Shown: piece after piece, positions 1-42,000 of the stretch
Numbering within the stretch: the stretch's first letter is position 1
How the letters are laid out: each line of letters opens with the position of its first letter
NCBI GenBank assembly: GCA_965228855.1
Contig: CBDDIJ010000003.1
Location: 2,528,001 to 2,592,000 of the forward strand
Reading direction: 5' to 3'
Origin: Candidatus Obscuribacterales bacterium
Lineage (GTDB): Bacteria; Cyanobacteriota; Vampirovibrionia; Obscuribacterales; Obscuribacteraceae
Length of the DNA: 64,000 nucleotides
Position numbers: made by a program

Positions 1-3000
1 CTCCTCCCACAGGTACAGCATCCGGAAGGAGGTTGTTTAAACTCTGTACGACAGAAACTTCAGGCGGCCGTCCAGAAGGAGGGTTTGCGGAATTGGTATC
101 GGTGGTGAGAGATATAGGACTGCCCGAGGGCGCATGGCTTCTAAGAATGGCTGGTAAGGCAACATCGCTTGGCCCATCTTTCACAGGTTCTGCCTTAACC
201 ACCGGCGGAAGAGACGCAGGTGTTTCCAACCTCGGCACCGTCAATTTAGATGCCGGTGGCGTGGGCGTGACGTTCTCGACGACATTAAGCAATCGACTCA
301 AGTCGCTCGCCAGATCAGGATTGTTGACAGGCGCCAACGATTCATAGTCGGACGAAGTGACGCTCCCTTGCTTAGCTGGTTTAGCCGGCGGTAAAATTCC
401 GTCGCTCAAAACTTTCACAATCGACTCCGGCGATGGGGACGCCGATAAAGGTTTAGTCCCAGCAGGCTCTACCTGCGCGGGTGTCGCCAGGCTAGATTCA
501 CCATGGGCGGTGCCGCTGAAGACTTCAATACCCGGCAATATCGAAAGTTTGGAAGCCGCGGGAGACGGTTTCGCACTGTCGGACAGTGATGGTTTGGCAG
601 TGAAGGATGTTGAAGAGTTCTGAACTTCGATGCTGATGGATGGCAGGTGAGGTGTCGCAGTTTCGACTATGGGAACTGGCTTGATTCCAGCATTGGCAAC
701 CAGTGCAGCCAGGGGCGCTGATGGTTCCGCACTATCGCGAAGAAGATCCGCCCCATTGTGTTTCGTCTCAGCGTGCCTGGGCGTTGGTACCGAAACATTA
801 TCCTGGGACGCGGCAGCCACGACCGGCAGAATTTGAAGGTCTCCCGGTCCGCTGTCATCCTTAGTATCTTTATCCTTGTTAGGATGCGGAGCCTCGACGC
901 TCGTTTGAGCAAGAATCTCTGACAGCGACTTTGCAGCACTGATACTTACGTCACTGGGACCAGCCTCAGGAGAGGTGCTGGAGGTCGAACCAGATTTCAT
1001 GACCGGCAACGAGGCAAGGGACACATCACCGCGAATTCCCGCAGGCGAGGCCGAATGCGAAACCTCCGACGAGACCGCGGAAGGTACAACGTCCCCGGCA
1101 GAATGAGGAGCTGTCACCGAATCTGATTTCGGTGGTGCGGTTTCGAGAATATCAATCTGAAAATCCAAATTGGCAGGCGCATCGGACTGCCCAGTAGGCG
1201 CGAAGAAATCTTCCATGGCGGTAAATAATTGGGGCGATGGGGGAAGAAACACGAACGCGATACAAAGGGTTATGGGGGGTATCGAGTTGCGTAGTAAAAC
1301 TTCAAGGGGCATTGGAAGTTTGATATACGTCAATATGCGAAACGGAAAATTCCTGGACAGTCGGCGAGATTAAATCTCGTCGACCGAGAAGAATTGCCGT
1401 GACAGCCGGTCCTATTGACATCCGAGCGAACCGCGCATATGATCTTGTCGCCACGCCTGTATGCACCCGACTACAGCAGGTCCCTTACTATCGATCAAAG
1501 TAGACGACCGGAGACACGCCCCTCGACGAGGGGTATGAAGTAATAGTCGCCTTAACCCCTCGAAATCCACTTACCTTATTTGATAAACAGCGGAGTAAAA
1601 GATGGCTTCAAAGTCAACGGCAGCAGCGCAAACAGATCAGACGCCGACATCTACACCAGGCAACGCTCAGCTCGCCCAAACTCAGGCTGGGAGAGATACA
1701 ACGCCAGCAGCCGGCAGTGACGCCACAACTGGTGTTGCACCACATACGGAAGTACTGCAGGGCGACAACGTCCTCAGCCAGAGTCCTCAGCCAGGCACTG
1801 CCAACGAAACTGCCGCGAAGATCATTCAACAACAGAACGAAGCGACCGGTGTGGGGGGTGTTCGCGGCGACGCCAACAATCCTATTAATACTGCGCAGAC
1901 GACAGCAGAAGTTCGACGAGCAGAAGCCGTCGCAAGAACAACCAGCACGACTCCGACCGATGCTAAGGCTCCGGTCTCAAAACCAACAGACACGGCTCCT
2001 GCGACACCGACAACAGCAGAGACTCGCAGGCAGGAAGCACTGGCAAGAACGACCTCTACACCGGCAGACGTAAAACCGCCTGCCACCACTCCTGGTGACA
2101 CTCCGGCAACCACGCCGTCGGTTGCGGAGACGCGCAGACAAGAAGCGCTAACTAGATCGAGCAGCACGCCTGCAGATGCGAAACCGGCAGATGCAAAACC
2201 GCCGGCAGCGAATCCAGTCGAAGCGAATCCAACGTCGCCGACCACAGCAGAGACCAGACGGCAAGAAGCATTAGCTAGAACTACTGGAACACCCACCGAC
2301 GCGAAACCGGCAACAGGAAATCCTAACGACACGAATCCAACGGCACCGAGTTCTGCTGAAGTTCGAAGACAAGAATCCCTTGCTAGAAACACCGGTACGA
2401 CCGTCGATGGAAAACCGCCGGCCGCCACCGCCGGTGATGCCACGCTACCCGGACAATCGCCCGCAGAAACTAGGCGGCAAGAAGCTTTGACAAGGACTGG
2501 AACCACGCCTGGTACCACGCCTGGTGCCGAGGTGAAAGCTCCGGCAGCCAACCCGGGTGAGGTCAATTCGCCGACTCGCTCGCTTCAGGATTCCAGACTT
2601 CAGAGCGCCCTGGATAGAAGCGGTAAGGGACCCGCCACCGGCGAGCAGCCATCCGGCAGCAATCCACTCGGTCCTACTGCAGAGCAGAGAAGAGCCGACG
2701 CAATAGCGCGTACCGGTGCACCTGATGTGAAACCCGCAGCGCCCCGAACCGATGCCACTGCGGTGACACCTGGAGCCAGCCCGGCAGAACAGCGTCGGGC
2801 TGAAGCACTCACCAGAGCCAATGCTACAGACAACAGACCGGCTGCACTCGCAGGCGACGGGAAGCCGCCTGTTCAACCAACTGGCGACGTGAAACCGGCT
2901 GCGGCATTATCCCCGGAACAGCGCAGAGCAGAGAGCATTGCCAGAAACAATGCCACAGATAACAGACCTGCAGCACTCACCGGCGACGGAAAGCAGCCCG

Positions 3001-39000: not shown

Positions 39001-42000
39001 GAGACCGTCAACCAGAGAGACGAAGAGCTCAAGGTCAAAGACGATGACCTGATGCGTAAGGAATCTGAGATCACGCAACTCAAAGCTCAACTCGATGAGC
39101 TCAAGGACTCTTTCAAAGAAACCGTAGACAATTTACAAAAGCAACTGACTACCACCCAGAAAGCCGCTCAAGAAGCCAGCATGCAAGCACAAGCGGTGGC
39201 AAAACCGGAAGAGCCCCAAAAGCCGGCTTCAAACTTCTTCGACACCGAAGCCAACAAGCCCGCACCAACAGGCAATTTCCTGGACAGCCCCCAGGCTCAA
39301 CGACCGCTGTTCCAAAATCAGATGGATACGTTCAACAGCATGTCAAAGGCTCCGCCCAGCCAACCAGGTGGACCACCCACGCCTGGCGGACCGCCTAGCG
39401 AACCCAAACCGTTCGGCGGAGGCGCTCCGCCTACCGCTCCAATGCCGGAACCATCGAACCAGGCAGTACCAAAACCTCCGCAGCCATCGCCCGGCATGAG
39501 CTCACTGACAGGCACGGGCAGCTACGGAAGTGGCGTGCGCGCACAGGTTTTCGAAGTCATAGTACGCCAGGCGCTTGCGGGCGCGCCGTGGCGCGAAATC
39601 TGCGCCGGTCCAATGAGCGTCAACAACATATCGCCGGACGAAGTTGAATCCGAAGTCAAACGTCGCGAGCAACTGCTCAAGAAATAAGAAATACTAGCGT
39701 TGCTGGCTTTCCATCAGGCGTTCGTACTGATGCCAGAGGCGCACGACCGGTTCCAAATTACTCATATAGTGCGCGTTGACCTGAGACGGCAGACTCTGGA
39801 AAGTGGCTAGAATAGTGAAGATTACGAGCCCCAGATTGACCAACGTGCAAAGCACTATGACCGTGCGCGTGAAGCGAAATTGATCGTCCACCTTTTTGCT
39901 GAGTTGGGCGAACTGTTCGTCCCAGGTCTTATCCTTGCTGTCCATTTTTGAAAGACGCTCCCGCACAATTCCGTCGGTCTGTAGTTTGGCTTCCAACGAA
40001 TCACGACAATTATGCCACGGCTAGTCAAACGTTATGCGCAACACGACAAATCGCCCGTCAGCACTTATATAAACAGGCTCGACGGACTCTTTACAGGTTT
40101 TGTCGAGAGAGGACGCGAGCGAATAAGCTTGCCCTTCCTCCGCATAACCTGGTTGTGGAGTGACGATTAAGAAACGAACCTTATAGCGCCTCAAGGTTTC
40201 TACCAGTTCTTCGACCGTCCCTAACATGAGTTCGGACTGACCGTAATATGCAGCGCCAATATTCAGGTCGTACGGTCTGATGCACTTGCGTCCCGTATAT
40301 AAATACGTGAGACCATCATAAGTACAAGCGAGCGTATCATCATCAGCCGTATTATGTTTTATCCAATCAAACAATTTTTCGAATCCGCTCCAGTCCGCTC
40401 CATTTCGAGGCACCGACATTAGTGGCATCTGATTAGCGTGATTATTTCTGACCACGGCAGTAAGAAAAACAGCATTTGTTGCGACCATTGCCACCGCGAG
40501 TAATACTACGACTAACGACCGCAACTTTACTCGCGCCAGCATAGTTGAAACTGCTCCAAGGAATCCAGCGGAAAGAAAGGGCATCAGCGGAATTAAAAAG
40601 CGAAATGGAGGCCAGGGCCAGAGGATTACGACTATGGCGTAACCGGCGACCAGAGTAGCAAGCGGTTTCATTTGCCGCACACCGGCAACTACTACCACCC
40701 AGGCGAGCAAACCTCCGAGAACGTAAAGAATGAGGTTGTATGGAGTCGGATTTACAGTTTGAGAAACGCCGCAAAACAAAGCCTTTGTAGTTACGGCTAA
40801 CATTTCCTGCAAATTTTTGCACACGACAGCAAACTCGTGAGATATAGCCAGACGCAGAGCCCACTCAATATAGTTATCCTGATAAGACTGAATTCGATCA
40901 GACGCACCGCCGGTTCTCGAGCCAATTCCGAGCAGCATATGGGAAACTGAAGCAAGCGCAGTCAAACTGCATGAGGAAATTAGAATCGGGTTTAGTAAAC
41001 GTCGCCGCCAGAGAACCAGTAATGCCGCTATCGGTGCGACCCAGCCAATCAAGCGAATCGAAGCGGGTGCCGCCACTGCTACGCCCACGAGAACCTGTAC
41101 AATCGGTGACGGGCATCTATTTGCACAATAGCTATCGATTGCCCACAGGCAAACTATTAGACTCAACGCAAACGGCATCTCAGACAACACCTGACCACCG
41201 AAGAATGCAAAGCCCGGAATACTAATACAAATTGCAGCAGCCGAGGCTGCCACCACCCGTGATGCGTATGAGAATCGTACCAAGTACAGATATGAAAGCG
41301 GGAGAAACAGCGAGGCACTGAACACGCTTACAAGTTGGAGCGCAAAAAGATTTTGTGGAAATTGTGGCAGAGCGGTCCAGACCGTTGCCAGAATCAATGG
41401 ATACAAAATCGGGTATTTCATTTGAGCAGGCTCGCCTGGAAAACTCACGATTCTGTATCCATGTCCTTCGGCGAGTGATTTAGAGATAGTTATGTAGACG
41501 GCATCATCATGGAAGGTGCCGGCCACTTCAGGGATACAGAACGCAAACGATACACCGAACATCGAAAGAAAAAGAAGAGCCGCCACAACGAAATCGAGTT
41601 TGTTTAAACTCTGCGCGGTCGCAGCATGCTCATCGTTGAACACAAACATTCAGGTGCGCCTTACTCATCAAGCTGCATCGTGCGACTGGTCTAGAACCGG
41701 CATCGTCAGGGGATCTTTCCCACATCTCCTCCTGCTGGAGATTTCGCCTGCAATGTGTTTAAAAGAACGCCAGTTGAGTGGAAATTCCAGGTACACATGC
41801 GCGACACTCAAGAAGAGCAAAACGTTCAAACCCATCTTGAAGTCGTACGCATAAGTCGCCATCGCCAGGACGTACAGCACACCTACGGTTGCGATGCCAC
41901 GCTTTGACAACTTATGCCACTGAATGACTTTCGTTTTGGAAAACCAATTCAGATAATGGTATGTGTATGCAAAGGCGACAAGCCTCATTGCAGCAACAAA

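What a model noticed while it worked through the whole genome (the two positions that open the first line are those of the whole stretch)
1..39687. Order-wide core locus with a VirD4-like and a VirB4/HerA-like ATPase flanked by giant signal-less proteins
A 1,503-aa protein with a VirD4/TrwB-type coupling ATPase in its C-terminal half (g04109) and a 1,066-aa HerA/VirB4-like ATPase (g04107) sit among giant proteins with no signal peptide and no known domain except one LysM (g04103, g04104, g04105 of 5,941 aa, g04110); there is no relaxase, integrase or pilus gene. I read it as a chromosomal, lineage-specific export machine derived from type IV secretion that moves giant proteins, perhaps also the other signal-less giants such as the 8,536-aa g04322. 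A minimal two-ATPase T4SS-like system fixed in the core genome of an order would be new.
Evidence so far: Gene table. Pfam, relaxed: g04109 TrwB_AAD_bind and T4SS-DNA_transf at residues 1046-1366; g04107 DUF87 at 386-503; one Walker A motif each. g04109 homologues in 23 of 24 other Obscuribacterales genomes of at least 90% completeness, mostly one each, 51-68% identical over the ATPase half. In G004 and G105 (other genera) the neighbours are kept: g04107 85% and 81% identical over 1,055 residues, g04106 and the last 800 residues of g04105 (G004 only), g04110, then selA. No hydrophobic segment in g04104, g04105, g04110, g04322, g04256, g04257, g01039 or g01367. The finding spans contig positions 2524960 to 2567687; this window holds only 2528001 to 2567687 of it.
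(Added by a program. Inside this text positions count along the whole contig: contig position 2,528,001 is position 1 of the stretch shown here. "Call 12" and the like, gene names such as g00115 and contig names such as C1 are that model's own, and its searches are not shown. The text may have been shortened before it was handed on; [...] marks where a part breaks off. The agent that wrote the report below was given it as the finding of a first reader that could run no searches.)

Follow-up and report, generated by a model that had tools for sequence, protein, structure and literature searches.

The report
Channel-less type IV secretion motor pair
A whole order of non-photosynthetic relatives of cyanobacteria keeps, next to its ribosomal genes, two type IV secretion-type motor proteins and a family of huge signal-less proteins, and these motors most likely feed two previously undescribed secretion channels encoded elsewhere on the chromosome, although no cargo has been shown.

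Summary
The locus is real and core. g04107 and g04109 have strong orthologues in 57 of 59 other Obscuribacterales genomes and none in 141 other genomes of the class. They are adjacent in 54 of 57, and a giant's C-terminal domain lies beside them in 48 of 57. g04107 has a VirB4 architecture (N-domain Z 15.2 to TrwK, intact catalytic motifs) plus a four-cysteine tail; it is not a HerA. g04109 is a two-TM coupling-type protein lacking the sensor glutamine. The 'minimal stand-alone system' reading is weakened, because the order carries two further core T4SS loci with VirB4 and channel-like genes: A has its own VirD4, B has none. Outside the order the g04107 family usually precedes a signal-less gene, a Pfam toxin-type domain in at least 10 of 54 loci. 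Best reading (0.45): a recruiting/energising module acting in trans with those channels to export signal-less proteins. Cargo is unproven: G105 keeps both ATPases without any giant, and g04322 lacks the tail. The scan earlier noted analogous orphan ATPases in Patescibacteria and Asgard archaea, but not this family.

The parts
1..1333 (-). 5' part of g04103 (1,457 aa; rest lies before the window): low-complexity front, LysM-like domain, C-terminal DUF7718-like domain. The hydrophobic first 39 residues may precede the true start (inference).
1602..7109 (+). g04104, 1,835 aa, signal-less: T/A/P repeats, charged helix, LysM-like domains at 1370-1437 and 1537-1603, zinc ribbon (C1627/1630/1641/1644), DUF7718 at 1748-1835
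7672..25497 (+). g04105, 5,941 aa, signal-less: beta-hairpin/YD-like region (about 400-2600), T/Q/S/P stalk (about 3200-4800), two LysM-like domains, zinc ribbon (C5589-5606), DUF7718 at 5850-5940
25553..26128 (-). g04106, 191 aa, soluble, no family; last gene of the ATPase operon; candidate adaptor (inference); found in 53 of 59 other order genomes
26174..29374 (-). g04107, 1,066 aa VirB4-fold ATPase: VirB4-type N-domain (1-368), ATPase core with invariant Walker A, Walker B, R696 and Q707, helical C-domain with conserved C960/963/967/1023
29545..31515 (-). g04108, 656 aa, ATPase-less paralogue of the g04109 front half (zinc ribbon, disordered region, one TM, extracytoplasmic beta domain); its start overlaps the g04109 stop
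31515..36026 (-). g04109, 1,503 aa coupling-type (VirD4/TrwB-like) protein: zinc ribbon, ~600-aa acidic disordered arm, TM 671-689, extracytoplasmic beta domain (~795-925), TM 965-983, ATPase with Walker A/B but Lys at the sensor-Gln position
36658..39687 (+). g04110, 1,009 aa, divergent from g04109 in 16 of 16 loci read: acidic disordered front, conserved helical core (~488-720), coiled coil, 50-aa C-terminal domain 70-82% identical across relatives; no family
39694..39996 (-). 100-aa protein with a hydrophobic segment, kept beside g04110 in most relatives read, including G002 of the second family
42748..44214 (-). selA, housekeeping landmark of the conserved position (then spoU, tRNA-Thr/Tyr/Thr, tuf, S10 operon)

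Best explanation
The operon g04109-(g04108)-g04107-g04106 is a channel-less substrate-recruiting and energising module of the order's core type IV secretion apparatus. g04109 anchors in the inner membrane as a coupling-type ring. Its cytoplasmic disordered arm and atypical ATPase domain bind partners, and its extracytoplasmic domain reaches a channel. g04107 is the active VirB4-fold motor. Together they hand largely disordered, signal-less proteins to a translocon encoded elsewhere, most simply T4SS-B, which has no coupling protein of its own. The adjacent giants are the prime candidate cargo: recognised by the shared C-terminal DUF7718 domain (g04106 a possible adaptor) and retained at the wall by LysM-like domains. 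Shown: folds, motifs, topology by hydropathy, synteny, co-occurrence, the two other T4SS loci. Inferred: every physical contact, the pairing with T4SS-B, protein rather than DNA cargo, and the giants' location.
For: VirB4-type N-domain: Z 15.2, rmsd 3.8, 254 residues to TrwK, next hit Z 8.8 (Foldseek agrees). Catalytic residues invariant in 93 of 93 family members. g04109 passes two coupling-protein Pfam cut-offs and has two TM segments. The ATPases are adjacent in 54 of 57 genomes, with gaps of 6-257 bp in 12 relatives. Both other VirB4s have the same range: matches in 59 of 59 order genomes, 0 of 141 others. No coupling-protein gene was seen beside VirB4-B in G000 or in 5 of 5 relatives read. 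Extra g04109 copies lie alone, without VirB4 or giants, in 7 of 7 extra-copy loci read, which fits action in trans. Outside the order, 54 of 65 family loci with a downstream ORF have it co-directional; at least 10 carry Pfam toxin-type domains and 19 an amphipathic ~210-aa family. G000 gave no match for VgrG, TssC or FlhA, so T6SS and T3SS are not evident alternatives (genome 95% complete). Giant tail found in 58 of 59 genomes and within 6 kb of g04107 in 48 of 57.
Against: G105 (97% complete) keeps both ATPases but gave no match for the giant tail or g04106. G055 has the giants elsewhere. In G002 three g04107 copies lie away from g04109. The giants are convergent, not co-transcribed, in most loci. 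T4SS-B could instead use the core VirD4-A (58 of 59) or coupling proteins of mobile elements (46 of 59). g04109 lacks the sensor Gln (Lys in 29 of 35) and a conserved Arg finger (Arg in 6 of 35). Outside the order the g04107 family showed no T4SS neighbour, so it need not use such a channel. Zinc ribbons in the giants suit a cytoplasmic location. The best sequence-profile hits of g04107 are HerA/CedD-type DNA translocases, all below cut-off. VirB6-, VirB8- and PrgI-like labels at loci A and B rest on position and hydropathy, not on significant family hits.
Confidence: 0.45

Rival explanations
1. Not an exporter: a membrane sensing or scaffolding module. g04109 is a receptor (outer beta domain, cytoplasmic pseudo-ATPase), g04107 its ATP-driven partner, and g04110 and the giants are cytoplasmic scaffolds or effectors, as in zinc-ribbon-rich conflict or signalling systems.
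For: Receptor-like topology and degenerate catalytic motifs of g04109. ATPase-less and solitary paralogues. Dispersed single-domain paralogues of g04107. Family neighbours elsewhere include dynamin-like GTPases, SPFH, Hsp70, WYL, kinases and zinc ribbons. Zinc ribbons in the giants.
Against: A VirB4 N-domain is a translocon-docking module in known systems (PMC12102498 section 13). The LysM, YD-like and mucin-like parts of g04105 look extracytoplasmic. Toxin-immunity pairs follow the ATPase elsewhere.
Confidence: 0.2
2. DNA pump: the pair moves DNA (chromosomal transfer or uptake) together with the core conjugation-like locus A and its Replic_Relax protein, and the giants are mating or adhesion factors exported by another route.
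For: Core VirD4-A and Replic_Relax protein, each in 58 of 59 genomes. Relaxase-plus-coupling-protein element without a channel at C2:1.834-1.838 Mb, its coupling protein patchy in 46 of 59 genomes, which suggests the core channels can carry DNA. ATPase core as close to DndH (Z 33.1) as to VirB4 (33.4), HerA 28.4. Precedent of VirB4/T4CP pairs moving DNA through foreign channels (PMC12857230 passages).
Against: No nuclease, relaxase or integrase in the locus in 15 relatives of the first family read. Locus A already has its coupling protein. Family context elsewhere is toxin-like proteins.
Confidence: 0.18
3. One reading: a self-contained minimal exporter in which g04109 oligomers form the inner-membrane pore and g04107 drives the giants through, independently of loci A and B.
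For: Outside the order the family stands before signal-less toxins with no T4SS gene found nearby. g04109 has two TM segments and an extracytoplasmic domain conserved in 15 relatives' copies.
Against: No VirB3/VirB6/VirB8 or outer-membrane part in the locus. Two channel-like loci share its range. The ATPases are apart in G002 and the giants were not found in G105. No g04109-like gene was found beside family members outside the order.
Confidence: 0.17

Closest known systems
VirB4 ATPases (TrwK of R388, PDB 7o42/8rtd; T. pseudethanolicus VirB4, 4ag5)
   Same: N-domain fold Z 15.2; ATPase core Z 33.4, rmsd 3.0, 354 residues; soluble; intact motifs.
   Different: 9-20% identity; no VirB4 Pfam/NCBIfam model matched beyond a marginal TrbC hit; extra 270-aa helical domain with four conserved Cys; no VirB3/VirB6 gene beside it.
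Type IV coupling proteins (TrwB, VirD4, TraD, DotL)
   Same: PF10412 and PF02534 over cut-off, Walker A/B, inner-membrane anchor before the ATPase.
   Different: 670-aa cytoplasmic zinc-ribbon and disordered front, folded extracytoplasmic domain between the TMs, Lys for the sensor Gln, no relaxase beside it; PDB profile hits only E 0.11.
Chromosomal MPF-FATA-like T4SS of Patescibacteria (PMC12102498; abstract and section 13 part 1 read)
   Same: Chromosomal, lineage-wide, monoderm-type T4SS with coupling proteins mostly far from virB4; VirB4-A and -B score high on the CD1110 monoderm model, below cut-off.
   Different: Here a third, channel-less VirB4-fold family is paired with an atypical coupling protein and a giant-protein family. 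Locus A has a core Replic_Relax protein.
VirB4/T4CP pairs that borrow another channel (P. aeruginosa PAPI-1 with a type IV pilus; mycobacterial T4SS locus with T7SS; PMC12857230 passages read)
   Same: A two-ATPase core without an obvious own channel.
   Different: Those move DNA and sit on islands; this is a core locus beside tuf/S10 with protein-like candidate cargo.
HerA, CedD, DndH, Sir2-HerA translocases
   Same: Same superfamily; best sequence-profile hits (NF033849, CedD, HerA; all below cut-off); core Z 24-33.
   Different: No HAS barrel: the N-domain is VirB4-type. No NurA, Sir2 or CedA partner in the loci read.
Vampirovibrio chlorellavorus T4SS (PMC4451040 passages read)
   Same: A T4SS in the same class of bacteria.
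   Different: That is a plasmid and chromosomal VirB4_T system. None of the Obscuribacterales ATPases matched the 141 genomes outside the order.

Membership tests
VirB4 | VirB4-type N-terminal domain fold | tested here: met
   Z 15.2 to TrwK over residues 42-364
VirB4 | FtsK/HerA-type ATPase with Walker A, Walker B, Arg finger and sensor Gln | tested here: met
   G415, G420, K421, E660, E661, R696, Q707 in 93 of 93
VirB4 | Curated VirB4 sequence models | tested here: not met
   only a TrbC hit at E 0.043; VirB4-A/B do hit such models at 1e-30 to 1e-55
VirB4 | Encoded with VirB3/VirB6/VirB8 translocon genes | tested here: not met
   none in the locus in G000 or 15 relatives; such genes lie at loci A and B
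HerA helicase/translocase | N-terminal HAS beta-barrel | tested here: not met
   the N-domain is alpha/beta and matches TrwK instead
HerA helicase/translocase | Adjacent nuclease or effector partner (NurA, Sir2, DUF4297) | tested here: not met
   g04106 has no family, so a remote match is not excluded
Type IV coupling protein (VirD4/TrwB) | T4CP ATPase domain | tested here: met
   PF10412 30.2 bits (cut-off 20.5), PF02534 22.9 (20.1)
Type IV coupling protein (VirD4/TrwB) | Inner-membrane anchor N-terminal to the ATPase | tested here: met
   TM 671-689 and 965-983 by hydropathy
Type IV coupling protein (VirD4/TrwB) | Sensor glutamine after Walker B (motif recalled; position read by eye against G000's other ATPases) | tested here: not met
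   Lys in 29 of 35; hhalign did not align this part
Type IV coupling protein (VirD4/TrwB) | Recruits substrate to a T4SS channel | not testable with these tools
   needs interaction or secretion assays
Complete T4SS in the genome | VirB4 with VirB3-, VirB6- and VirB8-like membrane genes (loci A, B) | tested here: inconclusive
   VirB4s clear; PrgI E 0.08, TrbI/VirB10 E 4e-5 below cut-off; VirB6/B8 by hydropathy and position only
Integrative conjugative element | Integrase, relaxase, variable insertion site | tested here: not met
   same position beside selA/spoU/tuf across genera, GC like the contig, no such genes
Type VII (ESX) secretion | EccC/EssC multi-ATPase and WXG100 substrates | tested here: inconclusive
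   N-domain resembles ESX chains at Z 8.8 and 6.8 only; WXG100 was not searched in the genome
LysM proteins | LysM domain; peptidoglycan binding | tested here: inconclusive
   PF01476 over cut-off in g04105, below in g04104; binding not testable

The most novel reading that the evidence does not exclude
g04107 is the domesticated member of a widespread, undescribed class of channel-less VirB4-fold ATPases that export signal-less toxins and effectors. In Obscuribacterales it joined an atypical coupling protein to make a third, core T4SS motor set that threads disordered proteins of up to 6,000 residues, recognised by a C-terminal DUF7718 domain. This would be a new secretion pathway built from type IV parts, in an order that keeps three VirB4s in its core genome.
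Probability: 0.25. Interest if true: 0.88.

Novelty: new variant of a known kind. Interest (0 to 1): 0.72.

Why it matters
The lifestyle of Obscuribacterales is largely unknown (recalled). A motor nearly as conserved as EF-Tu, plus two more order-wide T4SS loci that nine literature searches did not find described, points to contact-dependent transfer of proteins or DNA as a core trait of the order. It gives a concrete route for the many signal-less effector-like proteins in these genomes. The g04107 family (2,737 clusters at E<=1e-30) beside toxin-immunity pairs is testable in cultivable cyanobacteria or Streptomyces, and would show VirB4-fold motors working outside a canonical T4SS operon.

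Tried and rejected
Complex prediction of the giant C-terminal domain with the g04109 ATPase, the g04107 C-domain and g04106: no answer, score 0.00, not used either way. ESM Atlas: no usable hit for the g04110 core; only leads under 0.9 (OAA lectin 0.83, avidin 0.80) for the g04109 outer domain. PDB sequence searches gave nothing clear for the g04109 ATPase or the giant tail. hhalign of g04109 against g04107: probability 7.5%, Walker A region only. PF03135 found no VirB4 in G000 although VirB4s are present, so that blank was set aside. The tail-tube search rang in no control and is uninformative. The genome-contig scan gave only 7 loci. 'g04107 is a HerA' was rejected on the N-domain fold. 'Mobile element' was rejected on fixed position. 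'The tail marks all signal-less giants' was rejected: the C-terminal profile hits only g04103-5 among 6,283 ORFs. The C2:1835662 coupling protein was rejected as the core partner of T4SS-B: it is on a mobile element and not found in 13 of 59 genomes, including single-contig G004 and G037. A shared N-terminal signal among signal-less giants was inspected by eye only, not tested. Literature searches found no description of this locus or family. The library lacks most subscription papers, the 2004 FtsK-HerA classification paper was not held, and no supplements were read.

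
Full report
Observation. The minus-strand run is g04109, g04108, g04107, g04106. 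g04110 is divergent; g04104 and g04105 converge on the operon.

Range and synteny. Of 107 order genomes including G000, 98 match g04107. Among 59 other order genomes of at least 90% completeness, 58 match g04107 and 58 match the g04109 ATPase. In G098 both matches are only weak paralogues and G066 has none, so 57 of 59 hold strong orthologues; 0 of 141 genomes of other families in the class match. From the listed coordinates the two genes lie within 6 kb in 54 of 57. The misses are G002 and two genomes with g04107 on short contigs. A giant's C-terminal domain lies within 6 kb in 48 of 57; I used only the nearest listed hits, which left 38 matches unlisted. I read the locus in 15 genomes of the first family (one search was cut and partly reprinted). 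g04110 flanks g04109 in all 15 and in G002. g04107 is 79-89% identical in 12 relatives, close to EF-Tu and far above SelA. The position beside selA, spoU, tRNAs and tuf is fixed, which argues against a mobile element.

g04107. Sequence profiles point weakly to HerA-type proteins (NF033849 E 3e-32, CedD, HerA, all below cut-off). Structure says otherwise. The full model (pLDDT 90.7) has TrwK/VirB4 as its top Foldseek match over 935 columns. The ATPase core ties between a Firmicute VirB4 (Z 33.4) and DndH (33.1), ahead of HerA (28.4). The N-domain folded alone (pLDDT 91.9) matches TrwK at Z 15.2, rmsd 3.8, 254 residues, with the next of 48,161 chains at 8.8. Walker A, Walker B, R696 and Q707 are invariant in 93 of 93 members. 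A helical tail carries C960, C963, C967 and C1023 in 91-93 of 93, probably a metal site (inference). The family is wide: 5,500 clusters at E<=0.001 and 2,737 at 1e-30, and 6 of 300 other genomes of the phylum.

Family context outside the order. Of these, 72 hold the family, 65 have a downstream ORF and 54 have it co-directional. Nineteen are an amphipathic ~210-aa family, 12 have strongly acidic N-termini, and 10 carry Pfam toxin-type domains: WHH and LHH nucleases, ADP-ribosyltransferase, papain-fold deamidase, metallopeptidase, non-specific endonuclease, some followed by SUKH immunity genes. The ten is a lower bound, since 130 neighbours were scanned out of 238 candidates. Other neighbours are dynamin-like GTPases, SPFH, Hsp70, WYL and zinc-ribbon proteins. 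No T4SS gene or g04109 relative was found among them. The sample is biased by the motif and by related contigs.

g04109. It passes two coupling-protein Pfam cut-offs. Its two TM segments flank a beta domain and follow a zinc ribbon and a long acidic arm. Walker A and the Walker B Asp are invariant and Glu is in 28 of 35. The sensor position holds Lys in 29 of 35 and the Arg-finger position Arg in 6 of 35, read by eye against G000's other ATPases. It may hydrolyse ATP poorly alone (inference). Extra copies stand alone in 7 of 7 such loci read.

The giants. g04103-5 are paralogues by their tails: LysM-like domains, a zinc ribbon in g04104/5, and DUF7718 at the very end (20 of 22 aligned tails hit it). 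Lengths run from 220 to 5,941 aa. g04105 adds a YD-like beta region and a T/Q/S/P stalk. The tail occurs in 58 of 59 genomes, but not in G105, which keeps both ATPases. g04106 occurs in 53 of 59. In G000 the C-terminal profile hits only these three proteins. g04322 instead shares repeats with an RHS protein and has HExxH motifs, so nothing ties it to this locus.

Channels elsewhere. G000 has two further T4SS loci. Locus A (C3:3.043-3.064 Mb) has pilin-like, VirB6-like, PrgI-like, VirB4, VirB8-like, VirD4 and Replic_Relax genes. Locus B (C2:1.983-2.008 Mb) has a TrbI/VirB10-like gene, a lipoprotein, two VirB6-like, PrgI-like, VirB4 and two VirB8-like genes, and no coupling protein. The VirB4s are clear; the membrane labels rest on position and hydropathy. 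By my count, VirB4-A is in 58 and a second VirB4 in 59 of 59 order genomes, none in 141 others. VirD4-A and Replic_Relax are each in 58 of 59. No coupling gene was seen beside VirB4-B in 5 of 5 relatives; G004 lacks the adjacent VirB6 genes and G040's VirB4-B is split. A fourth coupling-type gene lies on a mobile relaxase element and is patchy. VgrG, TssC and FlhA were not found.

Mechanism. Most likely (0.45) the operon is a recruiting and energising module that works in trans with these channels, most simply locus B, to export signal-less proteins, the giants first among candidates. Folds, motifs, synteny and co-occurrence are shown; contacts, pairing and cargo are inferred. Rivals are a sensing or scaffolding module (0.20), a DNA pump (0.18) and a stand-alone exporter (0.17). 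Against the best reading stand G105, the separation of the ATPases in G002, the convergent orientation of the giants, and VirD4-A as an alternative partner for locus B.

Comparison and novelty. The parts work like VirB4 and VirD4, but neither passes all membership tests. Precedents are the chromosomal T4SS of Patescibacteria with distant coupling proteins (PMC12102498, abstract and section 13 part 1) and VirB4/T4CP pairs that borrow other channels (PMC12857230, passages). The Vampirovibrio system is a different VirB4_T type (PMC4451040, passages). Searches found no account of this locus, of loci A and B, or of the family's link to toxins. Earlier scan notes describe analogous orphan ATPases in other phyla and none by sequence. 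Verdict: new variant of a known kind, interest 0.72.

Noticed in passing
G000:C3:3042915-3063560 (L071, L072): Order-wide chromosomal T4SS locus A with VirB4, VirD4 and a Replic_Relax protein, each in 58 of 59 other genomes: a possible core conjugation or chromosome-transfer system that deserves its own study.
   Followed up: partly
G000:C2:1983354-2007731 (L219, L220): Order-wide T4SS locus B with two VirB6-like genes, a lipoprotein with a weak outer-membrane-efflux hit, a divergent TPR-TPR-TrbI-like operon and no coupling protein.
   Followed up: partly
G000:C2:1814436-1838162 (partly L257): Mobile element with an integrase-like gene, type I restriction genes, a relaxase-like gene and a TM-less coupling protein but no channel; the coupling protein has 0-9 copies per genome in 46 of 59 and may borrow the core channels.
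   Followed up: partly
L081-L160: The g04107 family in other bacteria heads operons with polymorphic toxin-immunity pairs or an undescribed amphipathic ~210-aa family, near dynamin-like, SPFH and Hsp70 genes.
   Followed up: partly
L237-L256; G000:C3:2797981-2800086: Dispersed single-domain paralogues of g04107 in the order: N-domain alone, Cys-tail alone (often behind a zinc ribbon), or a degenerate ATPase plus tail, as in G000's second copy.
   Followed up: partly
window 49186-55989: 2,267-aa haemagglutinin-like giant with a signal-like N-terminus; by eye 23 of the 51 ORFs of at least 1,800 aa in G000 end in the same C-terminal domain.
   Followed up: no
G000:C3:2827646-2853271: g04322 (8,541 aa by my start) shares repeats with an RHS protein and has three HExxH motifs, the last in a metallopeptidase-toxin-like context.
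   Followed up: partly
G000:C3:414163-415134: A double-zinc-ribbon protein carries a 75%-identical copy of g04110's last 50 residues.
   Followed up: no
G000:C4:55765-65357: Trb-type conjugation genes (TrbE, TrbB, TraG, relaxase-like) on a 182-kb contig of higher GC; a foreign element or bin contamination.
   Followed up: no
L049-L050 (G002:C129), L228, L229: In the order's second family g04107 occurs as three copies, two in tandem, beside a 6,341-aa haemagglutinin-like gene and away from g04109.
   Followed up: partly
window 46412-46803: tRNA-Thr, tRNA-Tyr and tRNA-Thr before tuf; ordinary.
   Followed up: no
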